Virus record (IMG/VR): IMGVR_UViG_2648501797_000006
Span: 1-24,757 of that record
Strand: one strand, 5' to 3'
DNA: 24,757 nt
From: a virus
Taxonomy: Duplodnaviria > Heunggongvirae > Uroviricota > Caudoviricetes
Made by a program: the position numbers and the translations under genes. A model generated the notes under the pieces. That model was given only the letters and a program-made list of their open reading frames with translations. It made no database searches and was not told the DNA's origin. Positions 296-8,382 of this stretch are shown here, piece after piece (within the stretch, counting starts at the first letter, position 1; every line of letters starts with the position of its first letter).

Positions 296-1075
296 TTAGT
301 CCTGAAGCATTTTAACTTTCTTCTCATGCTTTTTATATTCGCCATTTATCCATTCAGGTTCTTCCCGAATAGCTGATCGCATACAGTGTGTTGGGATATC
401 ATTCCAGAAAGCTGTAATCGCATCTGCAAACTCTATAAACTGTGTTTCTGTAACCTCAAGTTGCTCATGACGTAGACTAAATCTATAGCCTCCTGGAATA
501 TTGATATCCTGATAATACTCAGGATGCGCGATGGAAAGCTCCCGATGGGCATGGCCATCACCGTGCTTATAAACATTGACTACTTGGCGACAGGCATCGA
601 TTTTTTCGTAATAAGCCTTGCCGGTGATATCCATCCCAACCCATTCTAGAATTTCAATTAGCCTTGGGAAGCCGATGTCCCAGATCATCGATGTTACGGG
701 TTTAGAGTCGAGCCAATGGCTGAATTCACGGATACACTTTTCTCGAAGTTCCTTATCGAACTGGTGAAACATTCCTGCTGTCAGAGCAAGTGAAACCGTA
801 TTTTTCATATCACTGAGGGCAATCCAATGTGAAATTCCTTCATCATGAGCCTGTTCCCAGATAGCCCCCTCGTCGTCATAATCGGGGTCAAAACGCTTAC
901 CGGCGGCCTCATAGTAATCTTTTTCTTTCTGCCGAGCTTCAGCTTCAAGATCAGAATCGCTAAACTGCGAAAATAAACGTTTTCTGGCTTCAGAAACATA
1001 AAAATTGTGTTTGTCGAGGAAGTAAGCCCGATCAATGGTTGCAAAATAAAAAAGTGAAAAATCTTTTTCGCTCAT
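296..1075 (-). CDS. Hypothetical protein, 259 aa, no family recognised (candidate prophage cargo)
   Basis: Track ORF 296..1153; likely start is the ATG at 1073..1075 (MSEKDFSLFYF...), preceded by AGGGAG. Stop TAA at 296..298. Contains HGDGHAHRELSIAH (an Rx5H spacing). Confidence 0.6.
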   Translation of the reverse strand: MSEKDFSLFYFATIDRAYFLDKHNFYVSEARKRLFSQFSDSDLEAEARQKEKDYYEAAGKRFDPDYDDEGAIWEQAHDEGISHWIALSDMKNTVSLALTAGMFHQFDKELREKCIREFSHWLDSKPVTSMIWDIGFPRLIEILEWVGMDITGKAYYEKIDACRQVVNVYKHGDGHAHRELSIAHPEYYQDINIPGGYRFSLRHEQLEVTETQFIEFADAITAFWNDIPTHCMRSAIREEPEWINGEYKKHEKKVKMLQD

Positions 1076-1451
1076 GGGGATCTCCCTCGTTTCGTCAGTT
1101 CTACAAGCCCTTGGAAGTAGGCTGCTAATAAAGAAAAGATTACATTTGAACAACTGTGCAAGATAGCAGTACGCCTAAAGGTAGTGCAAGTATCCCAACT
1201 AAGGTAACGATGCGTTTTCAAATATATAACTTAACGCTCGCGATATCCGCTTCTGGCACGAGGCGGACAGAACATGTGGACATGACGTCAGCTCTAAGCG
1301 AGGAGCTGATGCTAGCGGGGTAGGTTCAGTACAATCATAGGAGAGATCCAAAGTGTGCAGACACTGACTAAATTAAAGAAAATAGCATCTACGCTATATG
1401 GATATTAATAATGTCTATGACGAATATCATTATACGGGTAATGACTCCAAC

Positions 1452-1955
1452 TTATTGATAGTGTTTTATGTTCAGATAATGCCCGATGACTTTGTCATGC
1501 AGCTCCACCGATTTTGAAAACGACAGCGACTTCCGTCCCAGCCGTGCCAGGTGCTGCCTCAGATTCAGGTTATGCCGCTCAATTCGCTGCGTATATCGCT
1601 TGCTGATTACGTGCAGCTTTCCCTTCAGGCGGGATTCATACAGCGGCCAGCCATCCGTCATCCATATCACCACGTCAAAGGGTGACAGCAGGCTCATAAG
1701 ACGCCCCAGCGTCGCCATAGTGCGTTCACCGAATACGTGCGCAACAACCGTCTTCCGGAGCCTGTCATACGCGTAAAACAGCCAGCGCTGGCGCGATTTA
1801 GCCCCGACATAGCCCCACTGTTCGTCCATTTCCGCGCAGACGATGACGTCACTGCCCGGCTGTATGCGCGAGGTTACCGACTGCGGCCTGAGTTTTTTAA
1901 GTGACGTAAAATCGTGTTGAGGCCAACGCCCATAATGCGGGCTGTTGCCCGGCAT
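1452..1955 (-). CDS. insB: IS1 InsB frame (transposase made as an InsAB' fusion by -1 frameshifting)
   Basis: 167-aa frame overlapping the insA 3' end, sequence ...[27 protein letters not shown]... typical of IS1 InsB. Confidence 0.9.
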
Positions 1956-2149
1956 CCAACGCCATTCATGGCCATATCAATGATTTTCTGGTGCGTACCG
2001 GGTTGAGAAGCGGTGTAAGTGAACTGCAGTTGCCATGTTTTACGGCAGTGAGAGCAGAGATAGCGCTGATGTCCGGCGGTGCTTTTGCCGTTACGCACCA
2101 CCCCGTCAGTAGCTGAACAGGAGGGACAGCTGATAGAAACAGAAGCCAC
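1874..2149 (-). CDS. insA: IS1 InsA (91 aa)
   Basis: Translation [43 protein letters not shown]... matches IS1 InsA from memory. Confidence 0.9.
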
Positions 2150-2515: not shown

Positions 2516-2911
2516 TCATTTATCTCCGACCGGAAACCTCTTATACAAAGTCGATATGCCAATATCATAGATGATCGCCACCTTCTGGCGAGGAACTCCT
2601 GATGCAATTAATCGTCCGGCCTGTGCCCATTGTTCTGGTGTAAGTTTGGGACGTCGTCCACCAATTCGTCCCTGTGCGCGAGCAGCTTCCAGGCCAGCTT
2701 TTGTTCGTTCAACAATCAGTTCTCGTTCCATTTCAGCCAGGGCACCCATCACATGAAAGAAGAAGCGCCCCATAGGCGTACTCGTATCGATGCTATCCGT
2801 CAGGCTCCGGAAGTTAACACCTTTCTCCCGCAGTTCCTCCACTAACCCAACAAGATGTCGCATGCTGCGACCGAGGCGGTCACGCTTTCAGACCACCAGC
2901 GTATCGCCTTC
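2516..2911 (-). pseudogene. Pin/Hin/Gin-family serine DNA invertase remnant: N-terminally truncated with an in-frame nonsense codon
   Basis: Track ORF 2516..2863 gives ...RSLTDSIDTSTPMGRFFFHVMGALAEMERELIVERTKAGLEAARAQGRIGGRRPKLTPEQWAQAGRL..., an invertase C-terminal two-thirds. Reading upstream in frame gives EGDTLVV-stop-KRDRLGRSM: TGA at 2888..2890 (complement) replaces the conserved Trp of GDTLVVWKLDRLGRS. Similarity ends near 2911, so the catalytic-serine N-terminus is absent. Confidence 0.8.
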
Positions 2912-3026
2912 AGATATGCATCCTTGCTAAACTTAGATCGCCGGTCACCAACTAAGCATGCAGTATGCGTTATGTTTTTTATTGCTCCCAGGGTAATGTG
3001 TCCACTAACTAAACAAGGAGATAGTG

Positions 3027-3578
3027 ATGCTGCATACTATGAATTTCACGGTGCCCGTAAATCAGTCCACCGTTAACGCTTTAATTAGCAATTGCCTTGG
3101 AGCTATCAATCAGGGGGCGACTGAGTTAAACATTTACATTTCCAGTCCGGGCGGTGACCTCGTTGCAGGTTTTACTGCTTATCACTTTCTAAAGGCCCTA
3201 CCAATCCCAGTAAAGACCCATAACCTTAGCAATGTTGAATCAGTCGCTAATATCATTTTTCTTGCAGGGTCTGAACGTAAGGCGAATCCTGGGAGTCGGT
3301 TCTTACTGCATCCTTTTCACTGGGGCTTGATGGGCCCAAGCGTGGATCACTCACGCGTCAGTGAGTGGAGCGCGTGTCTCAATAATGACCTGGAGCGTTT
3401 TGTCGATATTTTGGAGAGTCAGATTGAGCTCAGTAAGAGCCGCAATGAGTGGAAGGAGGTTATCTCCGCCGCCACCATAGCCAATGCCTCTACAGCTCTG
3501 GATTGGGGGATGGTTCACGAGGTTGCCGCCGCCACTTACCCGCAGGCACCCGGCACATACTGGTGGATTAACTGTTAA
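3027..3578 (+). CDS. ClpP-fold (peptidase S14-like) serine peptidase-like protein, 183 aa
   Basis: AAGGAG at 3015..3020, 6 nt before ATG 3027. ...ELNIYISSPGGDLVAGFTAYHFL...SNVESVANIIFLAGSERKANPGSRFLLHPFHWG parallels ClpP ...YINSPGGVITAGMSIYDTM...GQAASMGAFLL...RVMIHQPLGG, with Ser and His at the corresponding positions. Assignment from recalled motifs only. Confidence 0.55.
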   Translation: MLHTMNFTVPVNQSTVNALISNCLGAINQGATELNIYISSPGGDLVAGFTAYHFLKALPIPVKTHNLSNVESVANIIFLAGSERKANPGSRFLLHPFHWGLMGPSVDHSRVSEWSACLNNDLERFVDILESQIELSKSRNEWKEVISAATIANASTALDWGMVHEVAAATYPQAPGTYWWINC

Positions 3579-3737
3579 CATAATTACCTCTCAAATTTAA
3601 ATTGGGCAGAGATGCCAGCATCCAGGCTCGCGCCTGGACGATTGTCTGATGATGAAAAGTGCAGTTTAATCTGTGGCTGGATTATCTGGATGCACTGGAG
3701 CTGGTTGATACCTCCAGTGCGCCAGATATTGAATGGC

Positions 3738-4148
3738 CTACTCCTCCGGCAGTTCAGGCCAGATGACATCCGGTGCGGTGCTGGTATCTGTTGCCGTCAC
3801 AGCGTCGATATAATCCAGCACAACGTTAAGTCGGGTAGTTTCTTCTTGCGTCAGTTTGCGCCCGGCCTGCAGCTTTAACTGAATCACGCTGATATTGACC
3901 ATTGCTGCGTCTATCAGCGACTGTTTTTTTTGTTCAGCGTCAGCTACCAGTTCATCATGAGAACGTTCCGGAGGGAGCGGCGCAGTAAATACCCCGTCTG
4001 AATACCCCCAGCCGATTCCGGGATGCTCACTGATATCAGAAATATCAATGAGCTGCTGATTATCCGGCACTGTGAATTCAGCCTCGCCATCCCAGACAAT
4101 GACATTCACAACCATCCCATTTTCAATAACTGCATATGACGCATTCAT
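3738..4148 (-). CDS. Tail fibre assembly protein (Tfa/gpU-like)
   Basis: C-terminus ...LDYIDAVTATDTSTAPDVIWPELPEE is the conserved Tfa C-terminal motif. Start ATG (complement 4146..4148) follows GAGGAG and overlaps the upstream stop as TAATG. Confidence 0.7.
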   Translation of the reverse strand: MNASYAVIENGMVVNVIVWDGEAEFTVPDNQQLIDISDISEHPGIGWGYSDGVFTAPLPPERSHDELVADAEQKKQSLIDAAMVNISVIQLKLQAGRKLTQEETTRLNVVLDYIDAVTATDTSTAPDVIWPELPEE

Positions 4149-4624
4149 TATGCAAACTCCTCGATAATACAAATCCCAGCAGCACCTTTCCCGCCTGTCA
4201 TACTGGTTCCGCTATAACCGGCATCGTATGCGCCACCGCCACCTGAACCATATACCTTACCACTAACACCACCGCCAGCGCCTGCGCGTCCACCGCCCCC
4301 CCAGTACGATGTTCCGCCTTCACCGCTGACGCCGATATTTCCGGACTGACCGTCGCCTCCATTTCCACCAATGATGTTGATACCGCCAGTACTTGGCACA
4401 CCGCCGTTATCGTCTTCGGTCAGCTCGCTGATGACCGAAAAATCGAACTGATAAATCAGCTCATGACGATTCAGATCCAGCAGCGTGCCGCCGTCATAAG
4501 TAATCGGGTTACCGCACGCTTCCGGGTTCCAGCCCAGAATGGCCTTAAAGAGCATCTGCCGGATATCGTCCACCACATCATACGAGGCAAACTGACCGCG
4601 CTCATCACGCCCGTTCCAGCTCTT
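4148..4624 (-). pseudogene. Tail fibre C-terminal (receptor-binding, Gly-rich) fragment lacking its N-terminal portion
   Basis: Frame is open from 4624 to stop 4148..4150 with only an alternative GTG at 4576; the Gly-rich C-terminus is directly followed by tfa. Upstream is the terminase gene, not the rest of a fibre gene. Confidence 0.6.
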
Positions 4625-6104
4625 TCATCGGGTCGGACATGTTGGTGTAGTTCTGAATGATGGTGATGGGATTCAGGTCTTCATCAGCAAGGTCATGTGA
4701 CAGCCCGGTCGCCCCGAAGGGGTCGATGGGTGACTCGCTGACCGGGCTGATTTTGTTCGCTGCTTTGGCCTCTTCGAGGATGTAGCGATAATCCACCTCT
4801 GCACCATCGGTAACGGTCAGGACGCCCATTTCCACCCATTTCTGAAAGCGTTCGGCTGTCCGGCGATCTTCATTTTTCTCGACGCTGTACACCGTGTCAT
4901 ACGGTACCCAGAAACGCGGGGCCACACTGTAGTAATGCGTTTTACCGTCAATCTCGCGGGTATAAAGTCGCGCCATGCTGTTCATATCCAGCTTACGCGC
5001 CAGGTCAAAGGCCAGAATGCACGGCTGCCCCTCGAACTGCTCAAGGGTCAGTGATTTATCCTCGCAGCTCTGCCAGCTCACCAGGTTGAAATACGCCGAA
5101 CGCGCCGACACCCAGATATTGAGGTGTTTTGTTTTAAAGACGTTTGCCAGACGGGCGTTATTTTTCGCACGCTGCTGCTGACTTAACAAAAATTCGCGAT
5201 AAACCGACACGCCAATATTTGGATTGGCTTTTTCCAGCACCTGCGGGTCGGTCCAGTCGTCACCTTCATCAACGGTATAGATGATCCCGAACAGTTCATC
5301 GTTGGGCACCGAGCCGTTGAGCATCTCGATGACTTCCCGCCGCTTGTCGTAGCACGGCCCCTCAATGTTGTACCCGGCAGTAGTAATGGCCCACATCAGT
5401 GGCTGACGTCGCGCCCCCATCCCGGTAAGCATCGTGGTGTAAAGCGCATCGGTGGCGTGCTCGTGATATTCATCCACCACCGCACAGTGGGGTGATGATC
5501 CATCACCGGGGTTACCGATCAGCGGTTCAAACCGCGCGCCATCCTCCGGACGGTTCATGTTTGAGGCGTTAACCTCAATCCCGAACGCTTCCGTCAGCAT
5601 GGGCGTGCGTTTACACATCAGTCGCGCCGGGCGAAAGACTTCCCACGCCTGTTTCTCTGTCGTGGCACCGGAATACACTTCCGCGCCAAACTCGTTATCA
5701 CAGGCAAAACAATACAGGGCGACACCGGCAGAGATTGCCGATTTGCCGTTCTTACGGGGGATTTCGGTATACACCTCCCGGAAGCGGCGCAGCCGGGAGC
5801 CTTTATTGACCCAGCCAAACGCACAGCAGATCACAAAGAGCTGCCACGGCTCCAGCGTGATGGGCATCCTCTTGAATGCCCACTCACCCTTGGTGTGCGG
5901 CAACAGCTGAATAAATTTGGCGGCTCGTTCAGCCAGGTCCTTGTCGAAGCGGTAACGAAACGACTTACTTTTTTCCGCCATCAGGTCATCAAGATGGCGC
6001 TGGCAGGCCTGAATCACAAACTGGCAGGCCACAATCTTTCCGCGAAAGACATCCCGGGCATACTGATTGGCAGCATTTACGTTGGGGTAAGATTTCCGGC
6101 TCAT
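4605..6104 (-). CDS. Terminase large subunit (Terminase_1-like, 499 aa)
   Basis: 499-aa frame; its ATG overlaps the TerS stop as ATGA (6101..6104). Placed after HNH and TerS as in HK97-type packaging modules. Confidence 0.85.
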
Positions 6105-7071: not shown

Positions 7072-7595
7072 ATGTACTCCAATGAAGAAACCAGCGAAAT
7101 AGCAGCCTTCATTCGTAGTAAACCTTTTTCATCAACGCAGTAATGGATTCTTTGAAGAGTCGCAATCAATACAACTCACTAATGGAGAGACTTGTCTCAC
7201 GCATGAGACAAATTTCCCGTTTGATTTAATGGACACTATAGAGGGACAGAATGCCTTCCTCACTCGAATCACATCAATTAAGGAGGTTCAACATGTTTCA
7301 TTCCACAAGTCATCAGGCTGTAATTATGGCAGCATCAGTTTGTGCCACAGACCTTTTCCGCTTCACTTTGAGCCTGATTCATTTCTACCTGACCGGCTCG
7401 CCTCTATCTTTTTAATCCCCACTTTATCCAAATTGCATTGCCAGAATGCCGACAACAGACTGACATTCAAATCCTGACTACCTCCAATAGGCTGAGCATC
7501 CACCTATATAGTTTTAATTTTCATCAATCCATTTAACTATCGTTTAATTGTTGTCACATAGGATTCTGCCGTTTTTAACAATGCAGGATAATAAG

Positions 7596-7889
7596 ATGAA
7601 AAAAATGTTGTTTTCTGCCGCTCTGGCAATGCTTATTACAGGATGTGCTCAACAGACGTTTACTGTTGGAAACAAACCGACAGCAGTAACACCAAAGGAA
7701 ACCATCACCCATCATTTCTTCGTTTCGGGAATTGGACAGGAGAAAACTGTTGATGCAGCCAAAATTTGTGGCGGCGCAGAAAATGTTGTTAAAACAGAAA
7801 CCCAGCAAACATTCGTAAATGGATTGCTCGGTTTTATTACCTTAGGCATTTATACTCCGCTGGAAGCGCGGGTGTATTGCTCACAATAA
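7596..7889 (+). CDS. bor: Bor lipoprotein (lambda bor homologue)
   Basis: MKKMLFSAALAMLITGCAQQTFTV...ICGGAENVVKTETQQTFVNGLLGFITLGIYTPLEARVYCSQ is near-identical to lambda Bor as recalled; lipobox LITGC; AGGA upstream of ATG 7596. Confidence 0.9.
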   Translation: MKKMLFSAALAMLITGCAQQTFTVGNKPTAVTPKETITHHFFVSGIGQEKTVDAAKICGGAENVVKTETQQTFVNGLLGFITLGIYTPLEARVYCSQ

Positions 7890-7920: not shown

Positions 7921-8382
7921 CTATCTGCACTGCTCATTAATATACTTCTGGGTTCCTTCCAGTTGTTTTTGCATAGTGATCAGCCTCTCTCTGAGAGTGA
8001 AATAATCCCGTTCAGCGGTGTCTGCCAGTCGGGGGGAGGCTGCATTATCCATGCCGGAGGCGGTGGTGGCTTCACGCACTGACTGACAGACTGCTTTGAT
8101 GTGCAACCGACGACGACCAGCGGCGACATCATCACGCAGAGCATCATTTTCAGCTTTCGCATCAGCTAACTCCTTCGTGTATTTTGCATCGAGCGCAGCA
8201 ACATCACGTTGGCGCACCTGCATGTCAGTAATTGTCGAGTTCGCCAGCTTCAGTTCTCTGGCATTTTTGTCGCGCTGGGCTTTGTAGGTAATGGCGTTAT
8301 CACGGTAATGATTAACCGCCCATGACAGACAGACGATGATGCAGATAACCAGAGCGGAGATAATCGCGGTTAATCTGTTCAT
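7921..8382 (-). CDS. Rz: Rz i-spanin
   Basis: [48 protein letters not shown]... near-identical to lambda Rz; start overlaps the R stop as ATGA. Confidence 0.95.
7980..8162 (-). CDS. Rz1: Rz1 o-spanin, nested in the +1 frame of Rz
   Basis: [55 protein letters not shown]... matches lambda Rz1 with lipobox and Pro-rich tract. Confidence 0.9.

What the first reader, a model, noticed from the sequence alone, without database searches (positions are those of the whole stretch)
3027..3578. Stand-alone ClpP-fold peptidase-like gene inside a decayed invertase/tail-fibre cassette
A 183-aa ORF with a canonical RBS carries the ClpP-like SPGG segment plus Ser and His at ClpP-equivalent positions, but is shorter than ClpP. 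It sits where an alternative tail-fibre segment would be expected, divergent from the dead invertase and convergent on tfa. Prophage-end fibre/invertase regions are known cargo hotspots, so a protease effector is plausible. It could instead be a relic prohead-protease fragment.
Basis: partly seen in the sequence, partly recalled or inferred. Interest (0 to 1): 0.7.

Follow-up and report, generated by a model that had tools for sequence, protein, structure and literature searches.

The report
Phage-carried short ClpP protease gene
This is an intact, evolutionarily maintained gene for a shortened ClpP-type serine protease that many unrelated temperate phages of enterobacteria carry as an add-on ("moron") gene; its fold and chemistry are known from one studied Pseudomonas relative, but what it does for a phage or its host has not been studied.

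Summary
Window 3027-3578 (+) encodes a 183-aa ClpP-fold protein with an AAGGAG ribosome-binding site. It has Ser72 and His95 at the ClpP catalytic positions and Ala149 in place of the catalytic Asp.

It is not a prohead-protease relic. It belongs to a distinct "short ClpP" family: 343 clusters at 50% identity, found in 226 species. One member has been characterised, PpClpP1 of Pseudomonas plecoglossicida (PDB 9UXT). The sequence match is E 1e-37 and the model-to-structure TM-score is 0.93.

The family lacks the N-terminal gate and, by alignment, the ClpX/ClpA docking pocket. dN/dS is 0.05-0.09, so the gene is under purifying selection.

In pseudomonads the gene is chromosomal, among stress-type genes. 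In Enterobacterales every context I examined is a phage accessory slot. These include the second gene of the mnt operon in immI, a P2-like slot between the tail-fibre assembly gene and the tail-sheath block, the lysis-terminase junction, sites inside tail operons, and prophage ends.

Here a roughly 0.7-kb cassette replaced the alternative tail-fibre half of a Pin-type invertible segment and removed the invertase N-terminus. The same frozen module sits on at least three prophage types.

The mechanism is inferred from PpClpP1: a Ser-His barrel that cannot dock ClpX and probably pairs with the host ClpP ring. The biological role is unknown. This is a new member of a known kind, of moderate interest.

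The parts
3027..3578 (+). Short ClpP (peptidase S14) gene, 183 aa, identical to RefSeq WP_016244976.1. Ser72 is codon 3240-3242, His95 is codon 3309-3311, and Ala149 (codon 3471-3473) stands in place of ClpP Asp171. The C-terminal tail is YWWINC.
3015..3020 (+). Ribosome-binding site AAGGAG, six bases upstream of the ATG.
   Evidence: It is conserved in the E. coli 100416 and Enterobacter copies.
2917..3026 (+). Upstream part of the imported cassette. The stretch from about 2955 to 3026 is shared with the 87.6%-identical copy in E. coli 100416, which has a different context. The consensus scan found no strong sigma-70 promoter.
2516..2917 (-). Dead pin-type serine invertase remnant, the C-terminal 133 codons. 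It has an internal TGA at 2888-2890. Roughly the first 50 codons, including the catalytic Ser region, are missing. Homology to intact pinE stops at 2916.
3630..3766 (+). Remnant of the second, opposed tail-fibre assembly gene (tfa'). Only about the last 45 codons remain and they are frameshifted. This marks the right edge of the replacement.
   Evidence: RefSeq annotation. Comparison with the intact arrangement in L097. Inverted-repeat pair I1 between tfa' and tfa.
3738..4172 (-). Tail-fibre assembly gene (tfa, Caudo_TAP), convergent on the ClpP-like gene.
4148..4576 (-). Glycine-rich tail-fibre tip fragment fused to a tail-terminator fragment. This is the deletion scar of the decayed prophage.
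1452..2149 (-). IS1 (insA/insB) inserted just outside the stop of the pin remnant.

Best explanation
The gene encodes an intact phage-borne member of the 'short ClpP' branch of peptidase family S14. The one studied member of this branch is PpClpP1 of Pseudomonas plecoglossicida (PDB 9UXT).

Shown here:
- It has the complete ClpP head-and-handle fold.
- Ser72 and His95 are family-invariant, and there is no third acidic residue.
- The N-terminal gating loops are absent. The hydrophobic pocket that docks ClpX/ClpA is not conserved.
- The gene is under purifying selection.
- In Enterobacterales it travels as a single-gene moron in the accessory slots of unrelated temperate phages. In nearly half of the viral contigs it is translationally coupled to the mnt repressor gene of immI.
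- In this window a cassette of about 0.7 kb (2917-3629) replaced the alternative tail-fibre tip, most of tfa', the crossover site and the N-terminus of a pin-type invertase. This froze the segment. The frozen module then spread by recombination to the ends of several prophages.

Inferred from the PpClpP1 biochemistry:
- The protein assembles into a wide-pored, heptamer-based barrel with a weak Ser-His peptidase.
- It cannot bind ClpX itself.
- It stacks on a ring of the host's own ClpP. The mixed barrel is fed through the host ring by ClpX/ClpA, and its output is altered.

Inferred from the mnt linkage: the gene is made in lysogens, so it is a lysogenic-conversion type function. It would tune host Clp proteolysis for host fitness or against incoming phages, rather than act in virion assembly.
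For: Identity:
- Pfam CLP_protease is above its cut-off.
- The best PDB sequence match is 9UXT_A, E 9.8e-38 over residues 3-169. Canonical ClpPs score only about 4e-9.
- The AlphaFold model has pLDDT 93.6. It superposes on 9UXT with TM 0.93, rmsd 1.7 A and 40% identity, against about 0.82 for canonical ClpPs.

Catalytic and interface residues:
- S72 and H95 are invariant.
- Asp171 becomes Ala149. Met1 aligns with Lys25 of mature ClpP.
- Pocket residues Y60, Y62, F82, I90, M92, F112, L114 and L189 become N, Y, A, H, L, K, N and W.

Functionality:
- dN/dS is 0.089 against E. coli 100416 and 0.051 against Enterobacter.
- The protein is identical (WP_016244976.1) in the four other E. coli genomes annotated here. 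Twenty-five genomes carry the 801-bp stretch at 99.8% DNA identity or more.

Mobility and cargo status:
- P22-like and lambdoid immI, after mnt and divergent from arc-ant.
- In 36 of 78 IMG/VR loci, mnt overlaps the start codon by one base.
- P2-like prophages, between the tail-fibre assembly gene and the tail-sheath block.
- Klebsiella lambdoids, between Rz/LysC and the terminase.
- Chromobacterium, between the tail fibre and the lysis genes.
- Inside Mu-like tail operons, and next to Rha, ERF or M78 genes.
- A prophage end next to DinI/HumD.
- 124 viral contigs carry a relative.

Local anatomy.

Biochemistry of the homologue (PMC12900304):
- It forms a tetradecamer with a 42.7 A pore.
- Ser and His are essential, and the third residue is dispensable.
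- No ClpX binding was detected.
- Alone it degrades neither casein nor GFP-ssrA.
- It forms a stable heterotetradecamer with canonical ClpP, which has higher activity and is served by ClpX.
Against: - The partnership with E. coli ClpP is extrapolated from a homologue only 40-47% identical, from a sister clade that is chromosomal, not phage-borne.
- The enterobacterial clade also lacks the Arg that follows the third-residue position in the pseudomonad clade. Ring-ring contacts may therefore differ.
- No promoter was predicted upstream in this window, and this prophage is heavily decayed. Expression of this particular copy is unproven.
- Expression in lysogens is inferred from the mnt linkage in other phages, not from this locus, which has no mnt.
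- No phenotype is tied to the gene. It matches no known defence model.
Confidence: 0.55

Rival explanations
1. Autonomous peptidase. The protein forms its own homo-tetradecamer and works without host ClpP or any unfoldase. It would clear peptides or unfolded chains through its gate-less pore, as a stress or fitness function brought by the phage.
For: - PpClpP1 forms homotetradecamers with a 42.7 A pore and has Ser/His-dependent peptidase activity on its own (PMC12900304).
- The family lacks the gate and the docking pocket.
- Pseudomonad homologues sit among stress-type genes: KGG, DUF2383, SDR and YetF.
Against: - PpClpP1 alone did not degrade FITC-casein or GFP-ssrA, and it was 13-fold less active than canonical ClpP.
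- Its activity rose in the mixed complex.
Confidence: 0.22
2. Anti-phage or superinfection-exclusion gene. The protease is a single-gene prophage defence, expressed in lysogens, that degrades proteins of incoming phages or triggers abortive infection. This concerns the biological role and could coexist with the best explanation.
For: - It occupies classical defence or exclusion slots. These are the mnt-side of immI in P22-like phages, a P2-like slot between tfa and the sheath genes, the lysis-terminase junction, and prophage ends beside an R-M system, a GIY-YIG nuclease gene and YafO toxins.
- It lies on the strand opposite the late genes (216 of 309 flanking ORFs).
Against: - No hit in PADLOC-DB.
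- No mention in the two P2/P4 hotspot studies searched, and none in other literature searches.
- The sister clade is a stable chromosomal gene in many pseudomonads, not in defence islands.
- No sensor or partner gene is conserved.
Confidence: 0.2
3. Decoy or inhibitor of host ClpP. The short subunit caps host ClpP rings only to blunt ClpXP/ClpAP, for example to stabilise phage proteins or antitoxins. Catalysis would be irrelevant.
For: - The heterocomplex with canonical ClpP was shown for PpClpP1.
- The short subunit cannot bind ClpX, so one face of a mixed barrel would be closed to unfoldases.
- From general knowledge, phages do encode host-protease inhibitors: lambda CIII, T4 PinA and T7 Gp4.5.
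Against: - Ser72 and His95 are invariant, and about 20 further active-site or handle residues are at least 95% conserved across 80 sequences. This argues that catalysis is selected for.
- The PpClpP1P2 mixed complex was more active, not less.
Confidence: 0.07
4. Silent passenger in this window. The family is functional elsewhere, but this copy, stranded in a gutted prophage without mnt or a recognisable promoter, is not expressed and does nothing here.
For: - No sigma-70-like promoter was found between 2800 and 3026.
- The prophage has lost its head and tail genes and carries an IS1.
- The invertase next door is dead.
Against: - The ORF and RBS are intact.
- The protein is identical in the five genomes annotated here, and the DNA is at least 99.8% identical in 25 genomes across at least four prophage contexts, some apparently complete.
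- The roughly 70 bp upstream are conserved with a copy in a different context.
Confidence: 0.15
5. Relic fragment of a ClpP-like prohead (head-maturation) protease, left behind by prophage decay.
For: - The best PHROG is phrog_94 'head maturation protease', E 2e-27.
- NCBIfam Clp_rel_HeadMat is the top NCBIfam hit.
- The homologue in phage phiv205-1 is annotated this way.
Against: - The score of 50.1 bits is far below that family's 120-bit cut-off.
- The protein is full length for its own family, with conserved N- and C-termini.
- dN/dS is 0.05-0.09.
- It is never found in a head module. It is present in P22-like phages, which by general knowledge need no prohead protease. It is also present in phages whose head genes lie elsewhere.
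- It is chromosomal and non-phage in pseudomonads.
Confidence: 0.02

Closest known systems
PpClpP1 of Pseudomonas plecoglossicida (PDB 9UXT; PLoS Pathog 2026, PMC12900304)
   Same: - The length is the same, 183 aa, with the same N-terminal truncation.
- Ser and His are at the same positions, and there is no catalytic Asp.
- The sequence match is E 1e-37. The model superposes with TM 0.93 and rmsd 1.7 A.
- Both share the family motifs THN..VES, FL.HP.HW, VDH.R..E and SLD.D.
   Different: - Identity is only 40-47%.
- The third position is Ala149, not Pro151, and the following Arg is absent.
- The C-terminal tail is YWWINC rather than QWSVHA.
- PpClpP1 is a chromosomal gene next to iron-permease, EEP and YbhN-like genes in the type strain (L094). 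The paper treats it as a housekeeping paralogue. The window gene belongs to a clade found here only on phages and prophages.
Canonical ClpP (E. coli ClpP; TIGR00493 / PF00574)
   Same: It has the ClpP fold, TM about 0.82. It also has the SPGG oxyanion segment and the catalytic Ser and His.
   Different: - Identity is about 19-20%. TIGR00493 scores 28 bits against a cut-off of 308.6.
- It lacks the propeptide, the axial loops and the start of helix A.
- It lacks Asp171 and the neighbouring Arg residues.
- The docking-pocket residues are largely polar.
- It is not linked to clpX.
Second, ClpX-blind ClpP isoforms that work only in mixed barrels (P. aeruginosa ClpP2, Listeria ClpP1, M. tuberculosis ClpP1). 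This comparison rests on general knowledge and on PMC12900304.
   Same: The logic is the same: a divergent ClpP ring that does not engage the unfoldase and gains activity when stacked on a canonical ring.
   Different: Those are chromosomal paralogues with near-full-length N-termini and Asp or Asn triads. This one is shorter, has only a Ser-His pair, and is carried by phages, so its partner ring would be the host's.
ClpP-related phage head-maturation proteases (NCBIfam NF045542; phrog_94)
   Same: Both are phage-encoded, ClpP-fold, N-terminally short proteins. The weak profile similarity is E 2.9e-13 for NF045542 and 2e-27 for phrog_94.
   Different: It scores below the curated cut-off. It is not in a head module, has no scaffold or capsid fusion, lies on the opposite strand in accessory slots, and is present in phages that have other or no maturation proteases.

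Membership tests
Peptidase S14 / ClpP superfamily (Pfam PF00574) | Profile score above the curated gathering threshold. | tested here: met
   49.6 bits against 20.2, E 5.4e-13, covering residues 7-168.
Peptidase S14 / ClpP superfamily (Pfam PF00574) | ClpP alpha/beta head plus handle fold. | tested here: met
   The model has pLDDT 93.6. TM is 0.80-0.83 to many solved ClpPs.
Peptidase S14 / ClpP superfamily (Pfam PF00574) | Catalytic Ser and His at the canonical positions. | tested here: met
   Ser72 and His95 align with E. coli Ser97 and His122. Both are invariant in the family.
Canonical ATP-dependent ClpP (TIGR00493 and PRK equivalogs) | Curated equivalog score. | tested here: not met
   TIGR00493 scores 28.2 against 308.6. 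The best PRK model scores 44.4 against 228.
Canonical ATP-dependent ClpP (TIGR00493 and PRK equivalogs) | Third triad residue, Asp (or Asn). | tested here: not met
   Ala149 is at the Asp171 position. The enterobacterial clade has Ala or Ser there, and the pseudomonad clade has Pro.
Canonical ATP-dependent ClpP (TIGR00493 and PRK equivalogs) | N-terminal axial loops, and the hydrophobic pocket for the IGF/IGL loops of ClpX/ClpA. | tested here: not met
   Met1 aligns with Lys25 of mature ClpP. Pocket positions Y60, F82, I90, F112 and L114 become N, A, H, K and N. The list of pocket residues is from memory of the ClpP literature. PpClpP1 does not pull down ClpX (PMC12900304).
Short ClpP, PpClpP1 type (PDB 9UXT) | About 180-195 aa, N-terminally truncated, Ser-His without Asp, with closest sequence and fold match to 9UXT. 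| tested here: met
   Sequence E 9.8e-38. TM 0.93 and rmsd 1.7 A.
Short ClpP, PpClpP1 type (PDB 9UXT) | Homotetradecamer, and a heterotetradecamer with canonical ClpP. | not testable with these tools
   Only single-chain prediction was available. This is known for PpClpP1 only.
ClpP-related head-maturation protease (NCBIfam NF045542) | Curated score cut-off. | tested here: not met
   50.1 bits against a cut-off of 120.
ClpP-related head-maturation protease (NCBIfam NF045542) | Located in the head module (portal, protease, scaffold/capsid) on the late-gene strand. | tested here: not met
   The contexts are immI, the tfa/sheath junction, the lysis/terminase junction, tail operons and prophage ends, mostly on the opposite strand.
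Known anti-phage defence systems (PADLOC-DB v2) | Match to any defence-protein model. | tested here: not met
   No family at E of 0.1 or better.
Pin/Gin/Hin-type invertible tail-fibre segment | Intact serine invertase. | tested here: not met
   Only the C-terminal 133 codons remain, with an internal TGA. The N-terminus is lost at 2916/2917.
Pin/Gin/Hin-type invertible tail-fibre segment | Inverted crossover sites flanking the segment. | tested here: not met
   No inverted repeat of 14 nt or more brackets 2860-4600. The only relevant pair lies within tfa'/tfa.
Pin/Gin/Hin-type invertible tail-fibre segment | Two opposed sets of fibre tip plus tfa. | tested here: inconclusive
   One set remains on the minus strand. 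Of the other, only a 137-bp tfa' remnant remains, and the ClpP gene stands where the second fibre tip is in L097.
Phage moron / accessory gene | Self-contained gene, present or absent at variable sites in otherwise syntenic phage genomes, usually on the opposite strand. | tested here: met
   There are at least 8 different insertion contexts in unrelated phage types. A 650-bp cassette is shared between different contexts. Of the flanking ORFs, 216 of 309 are on the other strand.

The most novel reading that the evidence does not exclude
Temperate phages of enterobacteria deliberately carry a ClpX-blind, gate-less Ser-His ClpP ring. It is expressed from the prophage, co-translated with the Mnt repressor in immI. 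It stacks on the host's ClpP to re-programme ClpXP/ClpAP proteolysis. This would be a previously unrecognised class of phage-encoded host-protease modulator. It could act as superinfection exclusion or defence (for example, faster removal of incoming phage replication or anti-repressor proteins) or as a stress-fitness factor for the lysogen.
Probability: 0.3. Interest if true: 0.7.

Novelty: new member of a known kind. Interest (0 to 1): 0.42.

Why it matters
The gene is routinely annotated as 'ATP-dependent Clp protease proteolytic subunit' or 'head maturation protease'. The evidence here fits neither label. It cannot dock an ATPase by itself, and it is not part of any head module.

The work here shows three things:
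- The only characterised relative, PpClpP1, represents a large family.
- One clade of that family is phage cargo. It is present in about 3% of complete E. coli genomes: 26 with this variant and up to 149 with the immI variant.
- In the immI variant the gene is wired into the lysogeny-maintenance operon.

This gives a concrete, testable candidate for a phage factor that alters host regulated proteolysis or phage-phage competition. It also adds context to the proposal that PpClpP1-type proteins are drug targets. If the function turns out to be ordinary, the result still corrects a widespread mis-annotation.

Tried and rejected
- Prohead-protease relic. Rejected on length, selection, context and curated score.
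- Known defence system. PADLOC gave nothing.
- Conserved partner gene. Neighbour clustering in 80 genomic and 78 viral loci found no universal partner. The recurrent neighbours are mnt in the immI type (36 of 78 loci), an unknown 182-aa ORF in six Klebsiella-type loci with no Pfam hit, and a KGG stress-protein gene in pseudomonads.
- Still-invertible segment controlling expression. No crossover repeats were found, and the invertase is dead.
- Promoter. The consensus scan found none upstream. My manual inspection of 2955-3026 found only poor -10/-35 matches.
- Literature. Searches for phage, moron or defence ClpP-like genes found nothing on this family apart from the PpClpP1 paper. The library is incomplete, so absence there is not proof.
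- Technical note. My first crude ORF caller failed on high-GC Pseudomonas loci. I replaced it with a GC3-aware one.
Full report
**1. The observation**

Window 3027-3578 (+) is an open reading frame of 183 codons. AAGGAG lies six bases before the ATG.

The protein passes the Pfam Clp protease model, with 49.6 bits against a gathering score of 20.2 and E 5.4e-13, over almost the whole profile.

An alignment with E. coli ClpP and family members places Ser72 and His95 on the catalytic Ser97 and His122 of ClpP. Both are invariant in every alignment made. The third triad residue, Asp171, corresponds to Ala149.

The protein is short because it starts at the position of Lys25 of mature ClpP. It therefore lacks the propeptide, the axial gating loops and the beginning of helix A.

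The window is the chromosome of E. coli ST540 (100% match). RefSeq already calls the gene 'ATP-dependent Clp protease proteolytic subunit', WP_016244976.1.

**2. Local anatomy**

To the left, on the minus strand, lies the C-terminal 133 codons of a pin-type serine invertase with an internal TGA. Homology to intact pinE genes (84-88% identity, in more than 1,000 E. coli genomes) stops abruptly at window 2916. The invertase has therefore lost roughly its first 50 codons.

To the right lie a 137-bp frameshifted remnant of a plus-strand tfa gene, then a complete minus-strand tfa, then a glycine-rich fibre-tip fragment.

An intact relative (L097) has this order: pinE(-), fibre tip(+), tfa'(+), tfa(-), fibre tip(-). 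In the window, a block from 2917 to about 3629 has replaced several elements:
- the invertase N-terminus
- the crossover site
- the alternative fibre tip
- about three quarters of tfa'

No inverted repeats that could serve as crossover sites remain.

The imported block shares about 650 bp with an 87.6%-identical copy in E. coli 100416. That stretch runs from about 70 bp upstream of the ATG to about 35 bp past the stop. The 100416 copy sits in a quite different place, at a prophage end next to DinI/HumD and convergent on a tail-fibre gene. The mobile unit is therefore essentially the gene alone.

The frozen module pin'-clpP-tfa'-tfa is found at 99.8% identity or more in 25 of 5,426 complete E. 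coli genomes. It lies at the ends of at least three other prophage types or sites, some apparently complete:
- next to dacD
- at ssrA, beside a type II R-M system and a GIY-YIG gene
- two further contexts

**3. What the protein is**

The best solved relative by far is 9UXT, with E 9.8e-38. Canonical ClpPs score about 4e-9.

An AlphaFold model built on 38 homologues is confident, with pLDDT 93.6. It superposes on 9UXT with TM 0.93 and rmsd 1.7 A. Canonical ClpPs give TM about 0.82.

9UXT is PpClpP1 of Pseudomonas plecoglossicida (PMC12900304). Its reported properties are:
- It is 183 aa and N-terminally truncated.
- It has a 'Ser-His-Pro' arrangement. Ser and His are essential, and the third residue is dispensable.
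- It forms a homotetradecamer with a 42.7 A pore.
- Its peptidase activity is 13-fold lower than that of canonical ClpP.
- No binding to ClpX was detected.
- Alone it degrades neither casein nor GFP-ssrA.
- It forms a stable heterotetradecamer with the canonical ClpP. That complex is more active and is served by ClpX.

The window protein shares the family-specific motifs, which are at least 95% conserved in 80 sequences: H65, E71, S72, H95, P96, H98, W99, D107, H108, R110, E113 and D121.

The residues that form the ClpX/ADEP pocket in E. coli ClpP are mostly replaced by polar ones. The list of pocket residues is recalled from the literature.

By curated cut-offs the protein is neither a canonical ClpP nor a ClpP-related head-maturation protease.

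**4. It is a living gene**

Pairwise dN/dS is 0.089 against the E. coli 100416 copy (dS 0.53). It is 0.051 against an Enterobacter copy.

Homologues keep the same length and both termini. A profile search of 1.84 billion representatives finds 343 clusters at E of 1e-30 or better, nearly all 180-200 aa.

**5. Where the family lives**

A scan of one genome per species found relatives in 226 species.

About seventy of the best 80 are Pseudomonas and its allies, at 42-47% identity, including the P. plecoglossicida type strain. Their neighbourhoods are not phage-like. They include cytochrome oxidase genes, a KGG-repeat stress protein directly upstream, DUF2383 ferritin-like proteins, an SDR, YetF/DUF421, DUF326, DUF72, a low-affinity iron permease and an EEP-family gene. 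Local synteny holds within species groups.

Every enterobacterial context I examined is a prophage or phage:
- P22-like phages (phiv205-1, EC.P3) and lambdoid PhiR12. Here the gene is the second cistron of the mnt operon of an immI module and overlaps the mnt stop by one base. The module is divergent from arc-ant.
- Enterobacter P2-like prophages, between the tail-fibre assembly gene and the tail-sheath block.
- Klebsiella lambdoids, between Rz/LysC and the terminase.
- Chromobacterium, between the tail fibre and the lysis genes.
- Pantoea, Erwinia and Proteus. The sites are inside Mu-like tail operons, or next to Rha, ERF or M78 genes.

IMG/VR holds 124 viral contigs with relatives at 50% identity or more. 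Of 78 analysed, 36 have the mnt-coupled arrangement. The genes downstream are highly variable cargo, including a YafO toxin, a P63C-domain protein and lipoproteins. Of the flanking ORFs, 216 of 309 lie on the opposite strand.

The immI variant occurs in up to 149 further E. coli genomes, including APEC O1.

**6. How it most likely works**

Shown: the fold, the Ser-His pair, the loss of the gate and docking pocket, purifying selection, and moron-type mobility.

Inferred from PpClpP1: barrel assembly, weak intrinsic peptidase activity, and productive stacking on the host's canonical ClpP ring. Substrates delivered by ClpX/ClpA through the host ring would then be cut in a chamber that is half phage-encoded.

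Inferred from the translational coupling to mnt: the protein is made in lysogens. By textbook knowledge of P22, mnt is the repressor that keeps the antirepressor off in lysogens. This is the signature of a lysogenic-conversion or exclusion function, not of virion assembly.

I give this composite explanation about 0.55. The rivals are:
- an autonomous peptidase (0.22)
- a defence or exclusion role (0.2), which concerns role and may overlap
- a catalytically irrelevant decoy (0.07)
- a silent passenger at this particular locus (0.15)
- a prohead-protease relic (0.02)

**7. Comparison with what is known, and novelty**

The protein is a new, phage-borne member of an already recognised kind: ClpP superfamily, PpClpP1-type short ClpP.

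The parts I could not find described in the searchable literature are:
- that the family is large
- that a whole clade is phage cargo inserted at many accessory sites
- that this clade is often wired to mnt
- that the common annotations ('ATP-dependent ClpP subunit', 'head maturation protease') do not fit

That library is incomplete.

The finding is real and tidy. Its mechanism rests on a homologue of 40-47% identity, and its biological role is open.

**8. Verdict**

- The 'cargo' interpretation is supported.
- The 'effector' reading is unproven.
- The 'relic' reading is rejected.
- Interest is moderate (0.42). It would be higher (about 0.7) if the host-ClpP re-programming or exclusion role were demonstrated.

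Noticed in passing
window 296-1153 (-): An ORF of 285 aa (259 aa in RefSeq, WP_025269809.1) at the outer edge of the prophage, beyond the IS1. It matches phrog_19541 (unknown function, E 8e-121) but has no Pfam or PADLOC hit. It may be another cargo gene.
   Followed up: partly
window 1452-2149 (-): An IS1 element (insA/insB with programmed frameshift) is inserted immediately outside the stop codon of the pin remnant. It is absent from the same module in other strains (L003, L098-L100).
   Followed up: partly
window 4148-6104 (-): A large internal deletion of the prophage. A C-terminally truncated large terminase (4605-6104) abuts a chimeric ORF that joins a tail-terminator fragment to a glycine-rich fibre tip (4148-4576). 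All head genes and most tail genes are gone.
   Followed up: partly
window 7548-7889 (+): An iss/bor-type serum-survival lipoprotein gene on the strand opposite the lysis cassette. This is a classical lambdoid moron in the same prophage.
   Followed up: no
L098 2708-6559 and L100 5786-6559: In other strains the same pin'-clpP module is flanked by a LEM-3-like GIY-YIG nuclease gene. In EC1722-1 there is also a type II restriction-modification pair next to ssrA. This is a small defence-type cargo cluster at the prophage end.
   Followed up: no
L174 5374-5922 (+) and five similar IMG/VR loci: An unknown 182-aa ORF with no Pfam hit sits 78 bp upstream of the short clpP on the same strand in lysis-adjacent (Klebsiella-type) contexts. 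It is a possible operon partner in that sub-clade.
   Followed up: partly
L025, L027, L045, L054, L070, L075, L088 (Pseudomonas and allied species, just upstream of position 8001, or of 5410 in L045 and 6490 in L070): A KGG-repeat 'stress-induced acidophilic repeat' protein gene directly precedes the chromosomal short clpP on the same strand in at least seven species. DUF2383, SDR and YetF genes lie nearby. This suggests that the pseudomonad clade belongs to a general-stress regulon.
   Followed up: partly
window residues 176-183 of the protein (3552-3575): The family has a conserved aromatic C-terminal tail: YWWINC or NWWVTC in phage copies, and xW[CS]VH[AST] in pseudomonads. Its role is unknown. 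It aligns near ClpP Leu189 of the docking pocket.
   Followed up: no
L008-L011 (Enterobacter P2-like prophages): The tail sheath, tube, tape-measure and gpU block is on the strand opposite gpD/ogr and the baseplate/fibre genes. This is unlike P2 as I recall its map. The short clpP sits at the junction.
   Followed up: no
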